IMG/VR virus record: IMGVR_UViG_2526164599_000006
Source: a virus
Lineage: Duplodnaviria > Heunggongvirae > Uroviricota > Caudoviricetes
DNA length: 51,662 bases
Strand: one strand, 5' to 3'
Position numbers and translations under genes: made by a program. This document shows, piece by piece, positions 4,468 through 45,221 of this stretch. Each line of letters opens with the position of its first letter. Positions within the stretch are counted from its first letter, which is position 1. A model generated the notes under the pieces. That model worked only from the letters and a program-made list of their open reading frames with translations, was not told the DNA's origin and did no database searches.

Positions 4468-4892
4468 TGTTTTTGGTTTTAACTGTTCCGCGTGCGCTCA
4501 GCCGCATTCACCACATCACAAAATTCACTTTAAAAAGGGCGGCAGAGCAGTCACGGAGTAAAACTGATACCGCCAAACGTCACCAGAAAATTGATAACAG
4601 AGGGCGTTGCAGCGGGGTTGTCACTTAAGCGTATGGTCAACCTGACAACCCGGTGTCCTCAACGGGGGAAGGAATAACCCCGCCATACTTACCGCCGCGC
4701 CATTTCGCGGATTGCCACAACCGGAAGCGCACGGTCGACGAAAATTTAACGACAGGCTATCTATGAACCAGCTACCTCGCCGTGCGCTTTCGCGTTATGG
4801 TCTGACTTTTCAGGGAAATATCCTTTCAGTAAACTTGTCAACGCCAAGATTATTGGCCGTTTTTCGCCATTTTTAATGTCCGCTATTGGTCA

Positions 4893-6859
<1,967 letters not shown>

Positions 6860-7057
6860 GAGTGTTCCCTTTGTGGTGTAGGAACCTTAAGGAAACAACA
6901 TGTTGGGTGGAGCGGACAATCCAAATGGTGAATTACTGTCTTATATCATTGGCGCTGACAAACTGTCAGTGCCGGATTCTTATCCGTGTCCGGCGCACGA
7001 CCACACGCTGTCACGAGAGGTCTCCATTCTCAACCAGTAACCTCAATGGAGGATAAA

Positions 7058-8034: not shown

Positions 8035-8313
8035 TTAGGGAAACTGGCGTCTTGCGTGGATCACGTTTACTACTTCAACGCTTGATGTTGTTACGCGGTA
8101 TAGAATTATATAGTTAGGGTGGGCTACAATCTCACGCAAGCCAGGTACTCTGTCGCTTGGTGGGTATAAATACGGATGTTCGGATAACGGCAGCACACAA
8201 CCCCTTAATCGCTGCCATAAGCGTTCAGCCGCATCTATGTCGAAACGAGCAATATAACTAGTTATATCATCTAGGTCGGTATCTGCGCTTTCAAGCCATA
8301 ACACGGGTAACAT
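8035..8313 (-). CDS. parE2: ParE-family toxin (ParE2-like)
   Basis: 92-aa product from internal Met of the 124-aa ORF (MLPVLWLESADTDLDD...HPNYIILYRV...); start overlaps stop of upstream antitoxin with 1-nt spacing. Confidence 0.8.
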   Translation of the reverse strand: MLPVLWLESADTDLDDITSYIARFDIDAAERLWQRLRGCVLPLSEHPYLYPPSDRVPGLREIVAHPNYIILYRVTTSSVEVVNVIHARRQFP

Positions 8314-8314
8314 T

Positions 8315-8506
8315 TTACTGCTTGCTCCGTTCCTTACGCATCTTAGCAAAGCGTTCTGCCATTCTGCGCTCAACTTCGTCATGGGGAATTGCTGGGCGCG
8401 GATCTGCAAGGCTCGTTGCTACTTTCGCACGCAGCCATTCGTTGTAACTGTTTTCTTGTTCAATGGTTTCAAATTCAGAAACCATTGGTGAAAGGGCTCT
8501 ATTCAT
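8315..8506 (-). CDS. paaA2: PaaA2-like antitoxin
   Basis: 63-aa product (MNRALSPMVSEFETIEQENSYNEWLRAK...) immediately upstream of parE-like gene; matches remembered PaaA2 of the E. coli O157:H7 paaR2-paaA2-parE2 system. Confidence 0.7.
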   Translation of the reverse strand: MNRALSPMVSEFETIEQENSYNEWLRAKVATSLADPRPAIPHDEVERRMAERFAKMRKERSKQ

Positions 8507-8526
8507 GTTTCCTCCGGTTTTATAAC

Positions 8527-8805
8527 TCAGGCGCGGCGGCATTTTTGCGCCGCAATCCATCTCGCTATGAGATCTTCCATTGATTCTTTTTTCTGCTTTA
8601 ACTCGCTGATTATCTGGCGTTGCTCATCCTCAGGGAAGGCTGAAAAAATCTGCAATAATTCCAGTTGATTAGACGTTAACCCTGCATGTGGTGGAGAAAC
8701 CCCCGGTTGTTCTGCGTATTCCGCATCCAGATACCCTTCCGGCATCCCGTATGTTTGCTCTATTCTTCTGGCAGCCTTTTCTCCAAACGAGGCTCTCCCA
8801 CTCAT
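8527..8805 (-). CDS. repressor-like regulator (PaaR2/CI-like), N-terminal HTH region apparently out of frame
   Basis: 92-aa ORF from ATG 8805; the same frame continues upstream without a start codon and encodes HTH-like residues (EIRRLRLKEWFKDKTLPPKEKSYLSQL); an ATG at 8897 is in another frame separated by an A7 tract (8887..8893). Confidence 0.5.
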   Translation of the reverse strand: MSGRASFGEKAARRIEQTYGMPEGYLDAEYAEQPGVSPPHAGLTSNQLELLQIFSAFPEDEQRQIISELKQKKESMEDLIARWIAAQKCRRA

Positions 8806-8936
8806 TAGTTGAGATAGGTAGCTCTTCTCTTTGGGTGGCAGAGTTTTATCTTTAAACCACTCCTTGAGACGTAAACGGCGAATTTCTTTTTTTGCATGTG
8901 GTAATTATCTTTAGTAATCACTAAACAAGCAAATAC

Positions 8937-8966
8937 TTGACTTAATGGTTTATTAAACACTAAACT
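8937..8966 (+). promoter_or_regulatory. candidate rightward early promoter/operator (pR-like)
   Basis: TTGACT (8937..8942) and TAAACT (8961..8966); three CACTAAAC repeats at 8919, 8958, 8977; RBS GAGGAAGG before ATG 8995. Confidence 0.35.
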
Positions 8967-20433: not shown

Positions 20434-20889
20434 ATACATATCTGGATTATCACCGGTTACGGTAAAAAGTGATTGCTTACTGTTTTTGTGAATGGCATTG
20501 CAGCAGCCGGATAATGTCAGTGCTGGCTGACGGTGTGCTGGTGGCGGGTGTGGTGGTTGCTGCTTTCCCGTTGCTGAAAAAGAAAACGCCAGACTGTTAG
20601 CCGGGTATCAGTTAGCGGGAGAAATTTTTAAATACTTCACAATTCAGGCGGTTGACTGTTGTCTGGTTTGCGGGGAGTTTGTTAAAAGAAACTGGCATGG
20701 TGAATCCCCCTGTGCGGAGGGGCAATCAGCGAGTAGGTATATGGGATAATCGCGGATTCAGGTGCTGGTACTGAATTCACCGGGAGGCACCCGGCACCAT
20801 GCAATGGCACATAGCGCCACTCTCCAGCCCCTCTCCGGAGGGGCTGTTTATATTGATTTTGTCAGATGTGAGTAAACTCCTTATGGACT

Positions 20890-35540: not shown

Positions 35541-35969
35541 ATGTTTCTGAAAACAGAACAATTTGAATATAACGGTGTGTCTGTCACGCTTTCCGAATTG
35601 TCTGCGCTGCAGCGTATCGAGCATCTTGCCCTCCTGAAACGGCGTGCAGAACAGGCAGAATCCTGCGGCAACCTGCAGGTAAGCGTGGAAGATCTCGTCA
35701 GAACCGGCGCGTTTCTGGTGGCGATGTCCCTGTGGCATAACCATCCACAGAAAACGCAGTCACCGTCAATGAATGAGGCCGTGATGAAGATAGAGCAGGA
35801 AGTGCTCACCACCTGGCCTGCCGATGCCATTGCCCGGGCGGAAGACGTGGTGTTGTGCCTGTCCGGGATGATCGAAGCTGTTCGTCCGGATACTGATATT
35901 ACTGAAGTGGCGAAAAATAACACGCTGACTGATGATTTTTCTGCGGGAAAGTCTTCGACGGCGAGCTGA
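35541..35969 (+). CDS. G: tail assembly chaperone G
   Basis: 142-aa ORF similar to lambda gpG. Confidence 0.85.
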   Translation: MFLKTEQFEYNGVSVTLSELSALQRIEHLALLKRRAEQAESCGNLQVSVEDLVRTGAFLVAMSLWHNHPQKTQSPSMNEAVMKIEQEVLTTWPADAIARAEDVVLCLSGMIEAVRPDTDITEVAKNNTLTDDFSAGKSSTAS

Positions 35970-39280: not shown

Positions 39281-39978
39281 TGCAGGATATCCGGCAGGAA
39301 ACACTGAATGAATGCACCCGTGCGGAGCAGTCGGCCAGCGTGGTGCTCTGGGAAATCGATCTGACAGAGGTCGGTGGAGAACGTTATTTTTTCTGTAATG
39401 AGCAGAACGAAAAAGGTGAGCCGGTCACCTGGCAGGGGCGACAGTATCAGCCGTATCCCATTCAGGGGAGTGGTTTTGAACTGAATGGCAAAGGCACCAG
39501 TACGCGCCCCACGCTGACGGTTTCTAACCTGTACGGTATGGTCACCGGTATGGTGGAAGATATGCAGAGTCTGGTCGGCGGAACGGTGGTCCGGCGTAAG
39601 GTTTACGCCCGTTTTCTGGATGCGGTGAACTTCGTCAACGGAAACAGTGACGCCGATCCGGAGCAGGAGGTGATCAGCCGCTGGCGCATCGAGCAGTGCA
39701 GCGAACTGAGCGCGGTGAGTGCCTCCTTTGTACTGTCCACGCCGACGGAAACGGATGGCGCTGTTTTTCCGGGACGTATCATGCTGGCCAACACCTGCAC
39801 CTGGACCTATCGCGGTGATGAGTGCGGTTATCACGGTCCGGCAGTCGCGGATGAATATGACCAGCCGACGTCCGATATCACGAAGGATAAATGCAGCAAA
39901 TGCCTGAGCGGCTGTAAGTTTCGCAATAACGTCGGCAACTTTGGCGGCTTCCTTTCCATTAACAAACTTTCGCAGTAA
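39280..39978 (+). CDS. L: minor tail protein L
   Basis: 232-aa ORF similar to lambda gpL. Confidence 0.85.
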   Translation: MQDIRQETLNECTRAEQSASVVLWEIDLTEVGGERYFFCNEQNEKGEPVTWQGRQYQPYPIQGSGFELNGKGTSTRPTLTVSNLYGMVTGMVEDMQSLVGGTVVRRKVYARFLDAVNFVNGNSDADPEQEVISRWRIEQCSELSAVSASFVLSTPTETDGAVFPGRIMLANTCTWTYRGDECGYHGPAVADEYDQPTSDITKDKCSKCLSGCKFRNNVGNFGGFLSINKLSQ

Positions 39979-39982
39979 TCCC

Positions 39983-40726
39983 ATGACAGAGACAGAATCA
40001 GCGATTCTGGCGCACGCCCGGCGATGTGCGCCAGCGGAGTCGTGCGGCTTCGTGGTGAGAGCGCCGGAGGGGGAAAGATATTTTCCCTGCGTGAATATTT
40101 CCGGTGAGCCGGAGGATTATTTCCGGATGGCTCCGGAGGACTGGCTGCAGGCAGAGATGCAGGGTGAGATTGTGGCACTGGTCCACAGTCATCCCGGTGG
40201 TCTGCCCTGGCTGAGTGAGGCTGACCGGCGGCTGCAGGTGCAGAGTGATTTGCCGTGGTGGCTGGTCTGCCGGGGTGAGATTCATAAATTCCGCTGTGTG
40301 CCGCATCTCACCGGGCGGCGCTTTGAGCACGGGGTGACGGACTGTTACACGCTGTTCCGGGATGCTTATCATCTGGCGGGGATTGAGATGCCGGATTTTC
40401 ATCGCGGGGATGACTGGTGGCGTCACGGTCAGAATCTCTATCTGGATAATCTGGAGGCCACAGGGCTGTATCAGGTGCCGTTGTCAGCGGCGCAGCCGGG
40501 CGATGTGCTGCTGTGCTGTTTTGGTTCATCGGTGCCGAATCATGCCGCCATTTACTGTGGTGACGGCGAGCTGCTGCACCATATTCCTGAACAACTGAGC
40601 AAACGAGAGAGGTACACCGACAAATGGCAGCGACGCACACACTCCCTCTGGCGTCACCAGGCATGGCACGCATCTGCCTTTACGGGGATTTGCAACGATT
40701 TGGCCGCCGCATCGACCTTCGTGTGA
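39983..40726 (+). CDS. K: tail assembly protein K (NlpC/P60 and JAB-like)
   Basis: Product MTETESAILAHARRCAPAESCGFVV... as lambda gpK. Confidence 0.85.
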   Translation: MTETESAILAHARRCAPAESCGFVVRAPEGERYFPCVNISGEPEDYFRMAPEDWLQAEMQGEIVALVHSHPGGLPWLSEADRRLQVQSDLPWWLVCRGEIHKFRCVPHLTGRRFEHGVTDCYTLFRDAYHLAGIEMPDFHRGDDWWRHGQNLYLDNLEATGLYQVPLSAAQPGDVLLCCFGSSVPNHAAIYCGDGELLHHIPEQLSKRERYTDKWQRRTHSLWRHQAWHASAFTGICNDLAAASTFV

Positions 40727-41264
40727 AACGGGGGCTGAAGCCATCCGGGCACTGGCCACACAGCTCCCGGCGTTTCGTCAGAAACTGAGCGATGGCTGGT
40801 ATCAGGTACGGATTGCCGGGCGGGATGCAGGAGAAACCGAATTATCATCCCGTCTTAATGAGCCGCTGGCAAATGGTGCCGTGATCCACATCGTGCCGCG
40901 TCTTGCGGGAGCAAAAAGTGGCGGTGTGTTTCAGGCGGTGCTGGGTGCGGCGTTGATTGCTACGGCAATCTGGATGCCGGGGATCAGTATCGCTTTCAGT
41001 GACATTCTCTTTTCAATGGGTGCGGCGATGACGCTTGGTGGTGTGGCGCAGATGCTGGCACCGAAAGCCAGAACTCCACGTACACAGACAACGGATAACG
41101 GCAAACAGAACACCTATTTCTCCTCACTGGATAACATGGTTGCCCAGGGCAATGTCCTGCCTGTTCTGTACGGTGAAATGCGCGTGGGGTCACGTGTGGC
41201 ATCTCAGGAGATCAGCACGGCAGATGAAGGGGATGGTGGTCAGGTTGTGGTAATTGGGCGGTAA
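40624..41264 (+). pseudogene. I: tail assembly protein I, interrupted by a 1-nt frame disruption
   Basis: N-terminal 54 codons in frame 1 (ATG 40624, stop 40786..40788); remaining I-like sequence in frame 0 is open from 40599 to 41264 with no ATG; shift lies at AAA/GGGGG tracts 40726..40734. Confidence 0.5.
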
Positions 41265-41336
41265 TATTATTTACTCATGTTCTAACTGATTTAATATTTA
41301 TATCGAACACTGATAATTATTCTATTGGTTAGCTAT

Positions 41337-41675
41337 ATGAACAAAACGATTTTATTCTGCACGATTATTGCCTTAACAGGATGTAAATCTTTGGATTACG
41401 TAAAATCCGGAAAACCTGTAATGGAAGGTAATTCATTAAAAAATATTGATGAATTGTCAGGCTGCATATCCAGACAATGGGCTGGTAATGGAACACCTAT
41501 AACATCCCTTCCTATTGAGAATGGGGTAAGCCTTTTAGTTCCACAGGCTATGGGGGGATATGATGTTGTGCTTGATATCAAAAAAGCAGGAAATGGCAGT
41601 AGTTTTACTCTTTATGAACGTGTACCAGCATTAACGCCAAAAATTTTTGCTGATAGTGTTAATGCATGTAAATAA
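41337..41675 (+). CDS. lipoprotein of unknown function (moron between I and J)
   Basis: Product MNKTILFCTIIALTGCKS... with lipobox LTGC; AT-rich DNA; own terminator downstream. Confidence 0.5.
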   Translation: MNKTILFCTIIALTGCKSLDYVKSGKPVMEGNSLKNIDELSGCISRQWAGNGTPITSLPIENGVSLLVPQAMGGYDVVLDIKKAGNGSSFTLYERVPALTPKIFADSVNACK

Positions 41676-41699
41676 TAGTTAATCCTGCCGTAACTCATG

Positions 41700-41727
41700 A
41701 GCCGCCTTTTGGGCGGCTTTGTTGTTT
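41700..41727 (+). terminator. rho-independent terminator
   Basis: AGCCGCC-TTTTG-GGCGGCT followed by TTGTTGTTT. Confidence 0.5.
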
Positions 41728-41741
41728 ATGGAGTGTGAGGA

Positions 41742-44700
41742 ATGGGTAAAGGAAGCAGTAAGGGGCATACCCCGCGCGAAGCGAAGGACAACCTGAAGTC
41801 CACGCAGCTGCTGAGTGTGATCGATGCCATCAGCGAAGGGCCGGTTGAAGGTCCGGTGGACGGATTAAAAAGCGTGCTGCTGAACAGTACGCCGGTGCTG
41901 GACAGTGAGGGGAATACCAATATATCCGGTGTCACGGTGGTGTTCCGGGCAGGTGAGCAGGAGCAGACACCGCCGGAGGGATTTGAATCCTCCGGCTCCG
42001 AGACGGTGCTGGGTACGGAAGTGAAATATGACACGCCGATCACCCGGACCATCACGTCGGCAAACATCGACCGTCTGCGCTTTACCTTCGGTGTGCAGGC
42101 ACTGGTGGAAACCACCTCAAAGGGGGACAGGAATCCGTCGGAAGTCCGCCTGCTGGTTCAGATCCAGCGTAACGGTGGCTGGGTGACGGAAAAAGACATC
42201 ACCATTAAGGGCAAAACCACCTCGCAGTATCTGGCCTCGGTGGTGGTGGATAACCTGCCGCCGCGCCCGTTCAATATCCGGATGCGCAGGATGACGCCGG
42301 ACAGCACCACAGACCAGCTGCAGAACAAAACGCTCTGGTCGTCATACACCGAAATCATCGATGTGAAACAGGGCTACCCGAACACGGCACTGGTCGGCGT
42401 GCAGGTGGATTCGGAGCAGTTCGGCAGCCAGCAGGTGAGCCGTAATTATCATCTTCGCGGGCGCATTCTGCAGGTGCCGTCGAACTATAACCCGCAGACG
42501 CGGCAATACAGCGGTATCTGGGACGGAACGTTTAAGCCAGCATACAGCAACAACATGGCCTGGTGTCTGTGGGATATGCTGACCCATCCGCGCTACGGCA
42601 TGGGGAAGCGTCTCGGTGCGGCGGATGTGGACAAATGGGCGCTGTATGTCATCGGCCAGAATTGCGACCAGTCGGTGCCGGATGGCTTTGGTGGCACGGA
42701 GCCGCGCATCACCTGTAATGCCTACCTGACCACACAGCGCAAGGCGTGGGATGTTCTCAGTGATTTCTGCTCGGCGATGCGCTGTATGCCGGTATGGAAC
42801 GGGCAGACGCTGACGTTCGTGCAGGACCGACCGTCGGATAAGGTGTGGACCTATAACCGCAGTAATGTGGTGATGCCGGATGATGGCGCGCCGTTCCGCT
42901 ACAGCTTCAGCGCCCTGAAGGACCGCCATAATGCCGTTGAGGTGAACTGGATTGACCCGGATAACGGCTGGGAGACGGCGACAGAGCTTGTGGAGGATAC
43001 GCAGGCCATTGCCCGTTACGGTCGTAACGTCACGAAGATGGATGCCTTTGGCTGTACCAGCCGGGGGCAGGCACATCGCGCCGGGCTGTGGCTGATTAAA
43101 ACAGAACTGCTGGAAACGCAGACCGTGGACTTCAGCGTGGGCGCAGAAGGGCTTCGCCATGTGCCGGGCGATGTCATTGAAATCTGTGATGATGACTATG
43201 CCGGTATCAGCATCGGCGGGCGCGTGCTGGCGGTAAACAGCCAGACCCGGACGCTGACGCTCGACCGTGAAATCACGCTGCCATTCTCCGGTACCACGCT
43301 GATAAGCCTGGTTGACGGAAGTGGCAATCCGGTCAGCGTGGAGGTTCAGTCCGTCACCGACGGCGTGAAGGTGAAAGTGAGCCGTGTTCCTGACGGCGTT
43401 GCTGAATACAGCGTGTGGGGGCTGAAGCTGCCGACGCTGCGCCAGCGCCTGTTCCGCTGCGTGAGTATCCGTGAGAACGACGACGGCACATATGCCATCA
43501 CCGCCGTGCAGCATGTACCGGAAAAAGAAGCCATCGTGGATAACGGGGCGCACTTTGACGGCGACCAGAGCGGCACGGTGAATGGTGTCACGCCGCCAGC
43601 GGTGCAGCACCTGACTGCCGAAGTCACCGCAGACAGCGGGGAGTATCAGGTACTGGCCCGCTGGGACACGCCGAAGGTGGTGAAGGGCGTGAGCTTCCTG
43701 CTTCGCCTGACCGTGACAGCGGACGATGGCAGTGAGCGGCTGGTCAGCACGGCCCGGACGACGGAAACCACATACCGCTTCAGGCAGCTGGCGCTGGGGC
43801 GTTACATGTTGACGGTCCGGGCGGTAAATGCGTGGGGACAGCAGGGCGATCCGGCGTCGGTATCGTTCCGGATTGCCGCACCGGCAGCGCCGTCGCGGAT
43901 TGAGCTGACGCCGGGCTATTTTCAGATAACCGCCACGCCGCATCTTGCCGTTTATGACCCGACGGTACAGTTTGAGTTCTGGTTTTCGGAAAAGCGGATT
44001 ACCGATATCAGGAAGGTTGAAACCACAGCGCGCTATCTTGGCACGGGGCTGTACTGGATAGCCGCCAGTATCAATATCAAACCGGGCCATGATTATTATT
44101 TTTACGTTCGCAGTGTGAACACCGTTGGCAAATCGGCATTCGTGGAGGCTGTTGGTCAGCCGAGTGATGATGCATCCGGTTATCTGGATTTTTTCAAAGG
44201 CGAGATAGGGAAAACCCATCTGGCTCAGGAGCTGTGGACGCAGATTGATAACGGTCAGCTTGCGCCTGACCTGGCTGAAATCAGGACGTCCATTAAGGAT
44301 GTCAGCAATGAAATCACGCAGACCGTCAATAAGAAACTGGAAGACCAGAGTGCGGCAATTCAGCAGATACAGAAAGTTCAGGTTGATACAAATAATAACC
44401 TGAACAGCATGTGGGCTGTGAAGCTGCAACAGATGAAGGACGGACGCCTTTATATTGCGGGTATCGGTGCCGGTATTGAGAATACGCCAGCAGGAATGCA
44501 GAGTCAGGTGCTGCTGGCGGCAGACAGGATTGCGATGATTAATCCTGCGAATGGCAACACAAAGCCGATGTTTGTTGGTCAGGGCGATCAGATATTCATG
44601 AACGACGTGTTCCTGAAACGCCTGACGGCTCCGACCATTACCAGCGGCGGTAATCCTCCGGCATTTTCCCTGACACCGGACGGGCGGCTGACGGCGAAAA

Positions 44701-45221
44701 ATGCCGATATCAGCGGTAACGTGAATGCGAACTCCGGGACGCTCAACAACGTCACGATTAACGAGAACTGTCGGGTTCTGGGAAAACTGTCCGCCAACCA
44801 GATTGAAGGCGATCTCGTTAAAACAGTGGGCAAAGCTTTCCCCCGGGACTCCCGTGCACCGGAGCGGTGGCCATCAGGGACCATTACCGTCAGGGTTTAT
44901 GACGATCAGCCGTTTGACCGGCAAATTGTTATTCCGGCGGTGGCATTCAGTGGCGCTAAGCATGAGAGAGAGCATACTGATATTTACTCCTCATGCCGTC
45001 TGATAGTGCGGAAAAACGGTGCTGAAATTTATAACCGTACCGCGCTGGATAATACGCTGATTTACAGTGGCGTTATTGATATGCCTGCCGGTCACGGTCA
45101 CATGACACTGGAGTTTTCGGTGTCAGCATGGCTGGTAAATAACTGGTATCCCACAGCAAGTATCAGCGATTTGCTGGTTGTGGTGATGAAGAAAGCCACT
45201 ACAGGCATCACGATTAGCTGA
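41742..45221 (+). CDS. J: host specificity protein J (central tail fibre)
   Basis: 1159-aa ORF in lambda gpJ position and size. Confidence 0.9.

What the first reader, a model, noticed from the sequence alone, without database searches (positions are those of the whole stretch)
40624..40788. Tail assembly gene I is split across two reading frames at a homopolymer
An ATG-initiated frame (40624..40788, 54 codons) encodes an I-like N-terminus and overlaps the end of K. The rest of I is in the adjacent frame, open from 40599 to 41264 with no ATG. One extra nucleotide in the AAA/GGGGG tracts at 40726..40734 would give a single ORF of about 214 aa. Together with the A7 frame disruption in the repressor-like gene, this suggests either homopolymer sequencing errors or a genuinely defective prophage.
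Basis: seen in the sequence. Interest (0 to 1): 0.45.

Follow-up and report, generated by a model that had tools for sequence, protein, structure and literature searches.

The report
One-base deletion splits prophage gene I
A lambda-type prophage's tail-tip gene I is broken by the loss of a single A, seen in this one draft genome and nowhere else, so it is most likely a base-calling error or at best a very recent knockout, and either way ordinary.

Summary
An ATG at 40624 opens a 54-codon frame whose first 35 residues are identical to phage lambda gpI. The rest of gpI continues in the adjacent frame, from 40728 to 41264. The cause is the loss of one A from an AAAA tract (now AAA, 40726-40728), immediately after the stop codon of gene K; the GGGGG tract is unchanged. 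Restoring the A gives a 213-aa protein that is 81% identical to lambda gpI.

The deleted form is private. It is absent from 7,211 homologous places in 3,904 complete E. coli genomes, and from three contig collections. Its frame-specific product occurs on one contig only, from the E. coli DEC13D draft assembly, which is the window's source.

Three comparisons with near-identical sequence point the same way:
- A contig with the next accession number (AIHJ) is identical over 2.46 kb except that it keeps the A.
- Another sister contig (AIHH) has its own private T6-to-T5 frameshift in gene L, against one SNP in 10.6 kb.
- A run assembly identical to the window elsewhere differs only by an A4/A3 length.

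This pattern favours a homopolymer miscall (about 0.62) over a real, very recent null mutation (about 0.30). The A7 lesion in the repressor-like gene is a separate, shared polymorphism. Nothing here is novel.

The parts
39983..40726 (+). [quoted passage not shown] Its TGA stop codon (40724-40726) runs into the A tract.
   Evidence: Searches give the ORF and translation. The equivalent gene is annotated 'C40 family peptidase' in relatives. The deletion leaves the K stop codon intact.
40624..40788 (+). 5' fragment of gene I in frame A. It has 54 codons: residues 1-35 are authentic gpI, followed by 19 out-of-frame residues and a TGA stop.
   Evidence: Residues 1-35 are identical to lambda gpI. 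The fragment alone scores 19 bits against PF06805, below the cutoff of 23.8.
40726..40728 (+). The lesion: an AAA tract that reads AAAA in lambda and in every relative examined.
   Evidence: Alignments. None of 7,211 homologous places in complete E. coli genomes matches the window exactly across this site.
40730..40734 (+). GGGGG tract next to the lesion. It is unchanged in the window.
   Evidence: In the error-laden assemblies L008, L010 and L012 it is this tract that is shortened.
40728..41264 (+). 3' part of gene I in frame B, equivalent to residues 36-213. It covers the rest of the ubiquitin-like domain, the Gly-rich linker and the C-terminal domain that sits in the lambda tail tip.
   Evidence: PDB hit 8iyk_I 'Tail tip assembly protein I', E = 6e-109. 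The virion-resident part of lambda gpI is residues 135-223 (PMC10721106).
40698..41264 (+). 188-aa 'tail assembly protein' as called in the source record (WP_071784102.1). The call starts at an ATT codon in frame B and works around the frameshift.
   Evidence: The codon at 40698 is ATT.
40881..41264 (+). The only conventional-start ORF in frame B (GTG, 127 aa). It has no convincing ribosome-binding site.
   Evidence: The same 127-aa call appears in five other contigs whose I gene is broken, or the sequence interrupted, in other ways.
41337..41675 (+). orf112, a lipoprotein-like insert between I and J that lambda lacks. It is context only, not part of the lesion.
   Evidence: The I-J spacer containing it is 36% GC, against 57% in I and J.
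41742..45221 (+). Gene J (central tail fibre), intact at 1159 aa. It is the downstream neighbour and shows that the rest of the tail-tip module is open.
   Evidence: EHX66562.1, E. coli DEC13D.

Best explanation
Gene I of this lambda-like prophage is the ordinary tail-tip assembly gene, 81% identical to lambda gpI. In this sequence record it lacks one A from the AAAA tract that directly follows the stop codon of K. The ATG-initiated frame therefore runs out after 54 codons, and the remaining 178 codons sit in the -1 frame.

The most likely cause is a homopolymer-length miscall in the 2012 draft assembly of E. coli DEC13D, the window's source. On that reading the gene is intact in the real genome and the prophage makes normal gpI.

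Shown: the position and nature of the lesion, its uniqueness, and the existence of an otherwise identical intact allele in a sister assembly.
Inferred: that the missing base is an artefact rather than a mutation.
For: 1. The allele is private. A 76-nt query across the site found 7,211 places in 3,904 complete E. coli genomes. None was identical; the best matches were 76/77 with one gap.
2. The deleted 30-mer has no exact match in GTDB species genomes, IMG/VR viral contigs or JGI metagenome contigs.
3. The frame-specific products are unique. The 54-aa product is nowhere on record. The 188-aa product is on one contig only, AIHI01000010.1, which contains two sampled stretches of the window exactly (9,480 nt; 12,405 nt).
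4. A contig with the next accession number (AIHJ01000012.1) is identical to the window from 39632 to 42091 (2.46 kb), except that it keeps the fourth A and so has an intact I.
5. The sister contig AIHH01000030.1 differs from the window over 10.6 kb by one SNP, two contig-end mismatches and its own private T6-to-T5 deletion. That deletion frameshifts gene L.
6. Contigs from run SRR096911 are identical to the window over 1,414 nt. Over a further 3,538 nt the only difference is an A4 versus A3 length.
7. Together, these near-identical comparisons give three private one-base homopolymer deletions against one SNP. Each deletion is in a different assembly. That is the signature of homopolymer miscalling, not of the usual mutation spectrum.
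8. Every other late gene in the window is open and of the expected length: Nu1, A, W, B, C, D, E, FI, FII, Z, U, V, G, T, H, M, L, K, J, lom, the tail fibre and tfa.
9. The same AAAACGGGGG cluster is miscalled in other, visibly error-laden assemblies.
Against: 1. No reads could be inspected, so the artefact is inferred, not shown.
2. An A4 tract is short for a consensus homopolymer error.
3. The 7 kb of core genes just beyond the window on the same contig (yciE to trpE) show no broken ORF, so the assembly is not generally error-ridden.
4. The prophage carries real lesions of other kinds. There is an IS21-family insertion and a shared A7 allele in a repressor-like gene. Genuine decay is therefore plausible.
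5. This lineage also shows real indels, including a compensated pair in J.
6. I could not establish the sequencing platform of the assembly. The genome announcement is not held in the paper library.
Confidence: 0.62

Rival explanations
1. The deletion is real. It would be a very recent, strain-private replication-slippage mutation that knocks out gpI. Translation from the ATG would give 35 authentic residues plus 19 missense residues, and no C-terminal domain would be made. gpI is required for lambda tail-tip assembly, and its C-terminal part forms the trimeric plug in the tip. The prophage would therefore yield DNA-filled heads without functional tails, unless gpI is supplied by another lambdoid prophage in the cell.
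For: 1. The sequence as deposited carries the deletion, and it was kept in version 2 of the assembly.
2. The prophage shows other signs of decay: an IS21-family insertion at 4836-6960 and a frameshifting A7 allele in the repressor-like gene.
3. Prophage late genes are not under selection in a lysogen.
4. gpI is a structural part of the lambda tail tip (PMC10721106; PMC12617516). That lambda gene I is required for tail assembly is classical genetics recalled from my own knowledge.
5. E. coli genomes carry a median of two I-like places each, so complementation in trans is conceivable.
Against: 1. No other assembly or contig shares the allele.
2. The flanking 2.46 kb is identical to an intact allele, so the event would have to be extremely recent.
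3. Counting sister-assembly differences gives three homopolymer deletions to one SNP. That ratio is hard to reconcile with real mutation.
4. All of the roughly 20 other structural genes are intact.
Confidence: 0.3
2. The deletion is real but leaky. The tRNA-Lys reading AAA (40726-28) would slip back one base onto GAA while the rare CGG codon waits in the A site, and the next codon read would be ACG. This produces exactly the wild-type sequence ...RVKTGAEA.... Only three gpI copies are needed per virion, so a percent-level slip could leave the prophage partly viable.
For: By inspection of the sequence, a -1 shift at GTG-AAA|CGG restores the wild-type amino-acid sequence with no substitution. 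Three gpI copies per tail tip are reported in PMC10721106 and PMC12617516. That tRNA-Lys is prone to slippage, and that CGG is rare in E. coli, are from my own knowledge.
Against: 1. There is no X XXY YYZ heptamer, because the base before AAA is G.
2. I neither looked for nor found a stimulatory structure.
3. The two-frame arrangement is not conserved anywhere; none of 7,211 places has it. It cannot be a selected recoding signal.
4. The efficiency is unknown and probably well below 1%.
Confidence: 0.04
3. The annotated frame-B ORF is a genuine N-terminally truncated gpI that still works. This would be either the 188-aa call from ATT 40698 or the 127-aa call from GTG 40881. The argument is that the ubiquitin-like domain has been proposed to be cleaved off, and only the C-terminal part is resolved in the virion.
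For: 1. The C-terminal domain and the Gly-Gly linker are fully contained in both ORFs.
2. Only residues 135-223 of lambda gpI are resolved in virions.
3. Cleavage of the Ub-like domain by the JAB domain of gpK has been proposed (PMC1779556).
Against: 1. ATT is an exceptional start codon. The GTG at 40881 has no properly spaced Shine-Dalgarno sequence (inspection).
2. The first 11 residues of the 188-aa product (MWPPHRPSCE...) are out-of-frame K/I overlap sequence.
3. No homologue uses such a start. In relatives, every call is in frame with the lambda ATG.
4. The Ub-like domain is conserved across lambdoid and T1-like phages, which implies it is needed.
Confidence: 0.02

Closest known systems
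Phage lambda gene I (tail-tip assembly protein gpI; Pfam PF06805 Lambda_tail_I; PDB 8iyk chain I)
   Same: The position is the same, between K and J, with the same 103-nt overlap on K. The repaired product is 81% identical overall, and residues 1-68 are identical. The domain layout is also the same: a ubiquitin-like N-terminal domain, a Gly-rich linker and a C-terminal plug domain.
   Different: In this record the ORF is interrupted at codon 36 by a one-base deletion. The hydrophobic middle segment is 10 residues shorter than in lambda. A 112-codon lipoprotein-like ORF lies between I and J, which lambda does not have.
Intact I alleles of near-identical E. coli prophages (for example WP_119682227.1, and the I gene on AIHJ01000012.1)
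   Same: The nucleotide sequence is identical to the AIHJ contig over 39632-42091. It is 99.2-99.6% identical to the I-orf112 region in dozens of complete genomes.
   Different: Those alleles read AAAA and encode a single ORF. The window reads AAA.
The frameshift in the side tail fibre gene (stf) of laboratory lambda
   Same: It is a frameshift that disrupts a tail gene of a lambdoid phage (PMC10721106).
   Different: The stf lesion is an established mutation with a known phenotype. The I lesion here is seen in a single draft assembly and is unverified. gpI, unlike Stf, is needed for tail assembly (my own knowledge of lambda genetics).
The programmed -1 frameshift between lambda tail genes G and T
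   Same: It is a two-frame arrangement within the tail gene cluster. Its slippery motif GGGAAAG is present and intact in this window at 35945.
   Different: G/GT frameshifting depends on a conserved slippery heptamer and is kept in all relatives. The I split has no such heptamer and is found in no relative.

Membership tests
Lambda gpI / PF06805 Lambda_tail_I | N-terminal ubiquitin-like domain that matches the Pfam model above its gathering score | tested here: met
   The repaired 213-aa protein scores 85.1 bits against a cutoff of 23.8, over residues 14-97. The 54-aa fragment as encoded scores only 19 bits.
Lambda gpI / PF06805 Lambda_tail_I | C-terminal domain homologous to the part of gpI that sits in the lambda tail tip | tested here: met
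   PDB 8iyk_I matches over the full length, E = 6.4e-109. PDB 9e7m (90-residue chains) aligns to residues 126-212, E = 4e-47.
Lambda gpI / PF06805 Lambda_tail_I | Gene order K-I-J, with the start of I inside the 3' end of K | tested here: met
   K is 39983-40726, the I start is 40624 and J is 41742-45221. The 103-nt overlap equals that in lambda.
Lambda gpI / PF06805 Lambda_tail_I | A single uninterrupted reading frame | tested here: not met
   A stop falls at 40786-88 after the frame change at 40726-28. As written, the record encodes a disrupted I gene.
Programmed ribosomal frameshift site | The two-frame arrangement is conserved among homologues | tested here: not met
   None of 7,211 homologous places in complete E. 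coli genomes has it. Lambda and all aligned relatives are in frame.
Programmed ribosomal frameshift site | A slippery X XXY YYZ heptamer at the frame junction | tested here: not met
   The frame A codons are CGT GTG AAA CGG GGG CTG. No heptamer of that form is present.
Programmed ribosomal frameshift site | A downstream stimulatory RNA structure | not tested
   I did not pursue this, because the two features above already failed.
Homopolymer-length sequencing or assembly error | A one-base length change inside a homopolymer run | tested here: met
   A4 becomes A3, next to a G5 run.
Homopolymer-length sequencing or assembly error | The change is confined to one assembly and absent from clonal or near-identical sequences | tested here: met
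   The AIHJ contig is identical over 2.46 kb apart from the extra A.
Homopolymer-length sequencing or assembly error | Related assemblies show further private homopolymer indels in excess of substitutions | tested here: met
   The AIHH contig has T6 to T5 in gene L against 1 SNP in 10.6 kb. The SRR096911 contig has A4 to A3 against 0 SNPs in 3.5 kb.
Homopolymer-length sequencing or assembly error | Reads disagree with the consensus, or are ambiguous, at the site | not testable with these tools
   I had no access to reads, and the sequencing platform is not established.
Decaying (cryptic) prophage pseudogene | The lesion is inherited by related strains, or accompanied by other inactivating lesions in the same module | tested here: not met
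   The lesion is private. All other head and tail genes are intact. The IS21-family insertion and the A7 allele lie in the early region.

The most novel reading that the evidence does not exclude
The deletion is real, and the gene is rescued at a low level by -1 slippage of tRNA-Lys on G-AAA in front of the rare CGG codon. This would recreate the exact wild-type gpI sequence. A prophage that needs only three gpI copies per virion would then stay weakly infective despite a frameshifted essential gene.
Probability: 0.04. Interest if true: 0.3.

Novelty: already known. Interest (0 to 1): 0.08.

Why it matters
It matters very little for biology. The gene, its neighbours and its role are textbook lambda, and the lesion is either an artefact or a private knockout.

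The practical value is for curation. The RefSeq protein WP_071784102.1 (188 aa, called from an ATT start) exists only because a frameshifted I gene was annotated around. It should be treated as a pseudogene or as a sequencing error.

The case also shows that the two homopolymer frame breaks in this window have different histories and should not be pooled as evidence. One is private. The other is a shared, length-variable A tract at the start of a repressor-like gene.

Tried and rejected
1. I looked for the deleted allele elsewhere. This covered a 76-nt BLAST against all complete E. coli genomes, exact 30-mer scans of GTDB genomes, IMG/VR and JGI metagenomes, and an exact look-up of the 54-aa product. 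All were negative.

2. The 127-aa frame-B product did return five contigs, but none has the window's lesion. L008 and L010 have G5 shortened to G4. L012 has a garbled AAACAGGG. L009 has a run of Ns. L011 is rearranged.

3. I tried to find the I gene of the closest sister assembly (AIHH). Its contig ends at window-equivalent 40621, just before I. Exact look-ups of J, the tail fibre and K did not return another AIHH contig.

5. I tried to establish the sequencing platform. The DEC genome announcement (PMC3370608) is not held, and accession and strain searches found nothing useful.

6. I tested for pervasive homopolymer error in the window by listing all indels against the nearest relatives. Only three one-base homopolymer differences stand out: 8887, 25750 and 40726. 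Two of them are shared with other genomes. The window is therefore not error-riddled, and this test alone does not decide the question.

7. I rejected programmed frameshifting and internal initiation, for the reasons given under the rival explanations.

Full report
**What is in the sequence**

The region is the tail-tip part of a lambda-like late operon, in the order H, M, L, K, I, an extra small ORF, J, lom, tail fibre.
- Gene K runs from 39983 to 40726.
- An ATG at 40624, 103 nt inside K, opens a frame that stops at 40786-40788 after 54 codons.
- The adjacent frame is open from 40599 to 41264. It has no ATG, GTG or TTG until the GTG at 40881.

**What the two pieces are**

Residues 1-35 of the ATG frame are identical to lambda gpI. 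From codon ACG at 40728 onward, the second frame continues the gpI sequence. Inserting one A gives a 642-nt ORF of 213 aa. That protein is 81% identical to lambda gpI over its whole length (E = 1e-131), and its first 68 residues are identical.

The repaired protein matches Pfam PF06805 (Lambda_tail_I) at 85 bits against a cutoff of 23.8. It also matches the solved lambda 'Tail tip assembly protein I' chains (8iyk_I, E = 6e-109). The K/I overlap of 103 nt is the same as in lambda.

**Where exactly the lesion is**

Lambda, three 99%-identical prophages from complete genomes, and every other relative aligned read GTGTGAAAACGGGGG. The window reads GTGTGAAACGGGGG. One A of an A4 tract is missing at 40726-40728, and the G5 tract is intact. 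The first A of the tract is the last base of K's TGA stop codon, so K is unaffected.

**How common the allele is**

It is private.
- A 76-nt query centred on the site found 7,211 places in 3,904 of 5,426 complete E. coli genomes. None was identical; the best were 76/77 with one gap.
- The deleted 30-mer has no exact match in one-genome-per-species GTDB contigs, IMG/VR viral contigs or JGI metagenome contigs.
- The 54-aa product is not on record anywhere.
- The 188-aa frame-B product is on record on one contig only, AIHI01000010.1 of GCA_000250375.2.

Two sampled stretches of that contig are exact substrings of the window (9,480 nt; 12,405 nt). The J protein on it is deposited as ECDEC13D_1536 of Escherichia coli DEC13D. 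The window therefore comes from that draft assembly. There the gene was annotated around the frameshift, from an ATT codon at 40698 (WP_071784102.1).

**Real mutation or miscalled base?**

Reads are not available, so this is inference. Four comparisons with near-identical sequences bear on it.

1. A contig with the next accession number (AIHJ01000012.1) is identical to the window from 39632 to 42091 (2.46 kb), except that it has the fourth A and hence an intact I.
2. The contig with the preceding accession number (AIHH01000030.1) matches the window over 10.6 kb. It has one SNP, two mismatches at its very end, and its own private T6-to-T5 deletion at window-equivalent 39387. That deletion breaks gene L. 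The window and all other relatives have T6 there. This contig ends at 40621, just before I, so its I allele could not be read.
3. Contigs assembled from run SRR096911 are identical to the window over 1,414 nt. Over a further 3,538 nt the only difference is A4 in the window against A3 in the run assembly, at 20583.
4. In visibly error-laden assemblies, the same AAAACGGGGG cluster is miscalled in other ways.

Across these near-identical comparisons there are three private one-base homopolymer deletions, each in a different assembly, against one substitution. Real mutation spectra are dominated by substitutions, whereas homopolymer-length miscalling produces exactly this pattern.

Two observations pull the other way. 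The window is not generally error-ridden: all other late genes are open and of the expected length, and so are the 7 kb of core genes beyond the window on the same contig. A4 is also a short tract for a consensus error.

I put the artefact at about 0.62 and a real, very recent, strain-private mutation at about 0.30.

**What it would mean if real**

In lambda, gpI has an N-terminal ubiquitin-like domain and a C-terminal domain joined by a Gly-rich linker. The JAB peptidase domain of gpK has been proposed to release the ubiquitin-like domain (PMC1779556). Residues 135-223 form a trimeric plug in the tail-tip lumen that holds the C-terminus of the tape-measure protein and contacts gpJ (PMC10721106; PMC12617516).

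A frameshift at codon 36 removes everything but a third of the ubiquitin-like domain. The prophage would then be unable to build tail tips, unless another lambdoid prophage supplies gpI. E. coli genomes have a median of two I-like places each.

Two escape routes are conceivable but unsupported:
- A -1 slip of tRNA-Lys on G-AAA before the rare CGG codon would recreate the exact wild-type sequence. However, there is no canonical slippery heptamer, and the arrangement is not conserved anywhere.
- Internal initiation at ATT 40698 or GTG 40881 would give a truncated protein. However, there is no ribosome-binding site, and no homologue starts there.

**The link to the repressor-like gene**

That lesion is real in the sequence. 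The tract at about 8887-8893 (minus strand) is A7, where A8 gives a 123-aa helix-turn-helix protein.

It has a different history, though. A7 is shared by 3 of 593 complete genomes and by at least five independent run assemblies, and one assembly has A9. It is a length-variable tract in the population, not evidence about this assembly's error rate. It is also not linked to the I lesion.

**Comparison with what is known, and novelty**

This is lambda gene I in its normal place. The only departure is a one-base deletion unique to one draft record. It fails both tests applied for a programmed frameshift: conservation of the arrangement and a slippery heptamer. By contrast, the genuine G/GT slippery motif GGGAAAG is present at 35945. 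It also fails the test for an inherited pseudogene.

Nothing here is new in kind. The useful outcome is a curation note on WP_071784102.1 and a pointer to the reads or PCR that would settle the question.

Noticed in passing
window 8805-8960 (minus strand), A tract at about 8887-8893: The repressor-like helix-turn-helix gene starts ATG-C-A7. A8 gives a 123-aa protein (annotated 'hypothetical protein' WP_001169687.1 in relatives), whereas A7 breaks the frame. A7 is shared by 3 of 593 complete genomes and by at least 5 run assemblies, and A9 also occurs. This is a naturally length-variable tract at the very start of an immunity-region gene.
   Followed up: partly
window 4836-6960: An IS21-family element is cleanly inserted between dicB and the ydfA-like genes. 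It has istA (390 aa), istB (265 aa) and TGTCA... terminal inverted repeats, and is flanked by a 4-5 bp duplication (AACT). Relatives are continuous across the site.
   Followed up: partly
window 41337-41675: A 112-aa ORF with a lipoprotein-type signal (MNKTILFCTIIALTGC...) lies between I and J. The I-J spacer containing it is 36% GC, against 57% in I and J. It has no Pfam match. Lambda lacks it, but it is present in thousands of E. coli assemblies (listed in 6,742 blocks of the collection). It looks like a moron of unknown function.
   Followed up: partly
window 43319-43322 (gene J): The window reads GGA-AGT-GGC-AAT where most relatives read GGA-CAG-GGG-AAT. That is a -1/+1 pair three bases apart which keeps J in frame. 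The AIHJ contig reads GGACAGTGGCAAT, with one extra base, and its J is split into 550-aa and 614-aa pieces. This looks like a compensated frameshift, or a recombinant junction.
   Followed up: partly
locus L034 (AIHH01000030.1), window-equivalent 39387: The sister draft assembly has T5 where the window and all other relatives have T6. This frameshifts gene L. Its contig also ends at 40621, with two terminal mismatches.
   Followed up: yes
window 25750: An intergenic T tract upstream of the small terminase gene is T7 here. It is T8 in all but one of the 578 complete-genome records that share the region; strain ST648 shares T7.
   Followed up: partly
window 35929 and 36313 (genes G and T): There are in-frame losses of one copy of a tandem TGA triplet in G and of a 9-nt tandem repeat in T. 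They give G = 142 aa and T = 134 aa. Both alleles occur in other assemblies (229 and 49 blocks of the collection), so they are natural variants.
   Followed up: yes
window 8035-8560 (minus strand): A PaaA2/RelB-type antitoxin and a ParE/RelE-type toxin pair sits directly downstream of the repressor-like gene in the immunity region.
   Followed up: no
window 20583; locus L063 (SRR096911): A run assembly otherwise identical to the window over 3.5 kb has A3 where the window and other relatives have A4. This suggests that read set is prone to homopolymer undercalls.
   Followed up: partly
loci L001-L004, L013-L018, L051-L057: The annotated start of intact I homologues varies between records: 180, 190, 191, 193, 200, 210, 213 and 223 aa. 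Where I checked by alignment (the 191-aa TTG start in L001-L003), the call is in frame with the lambda-type ATG, which is conserved in those aligned relatives. The annotated protein lengths for this family are therefore not reliable.
   Followed up: no
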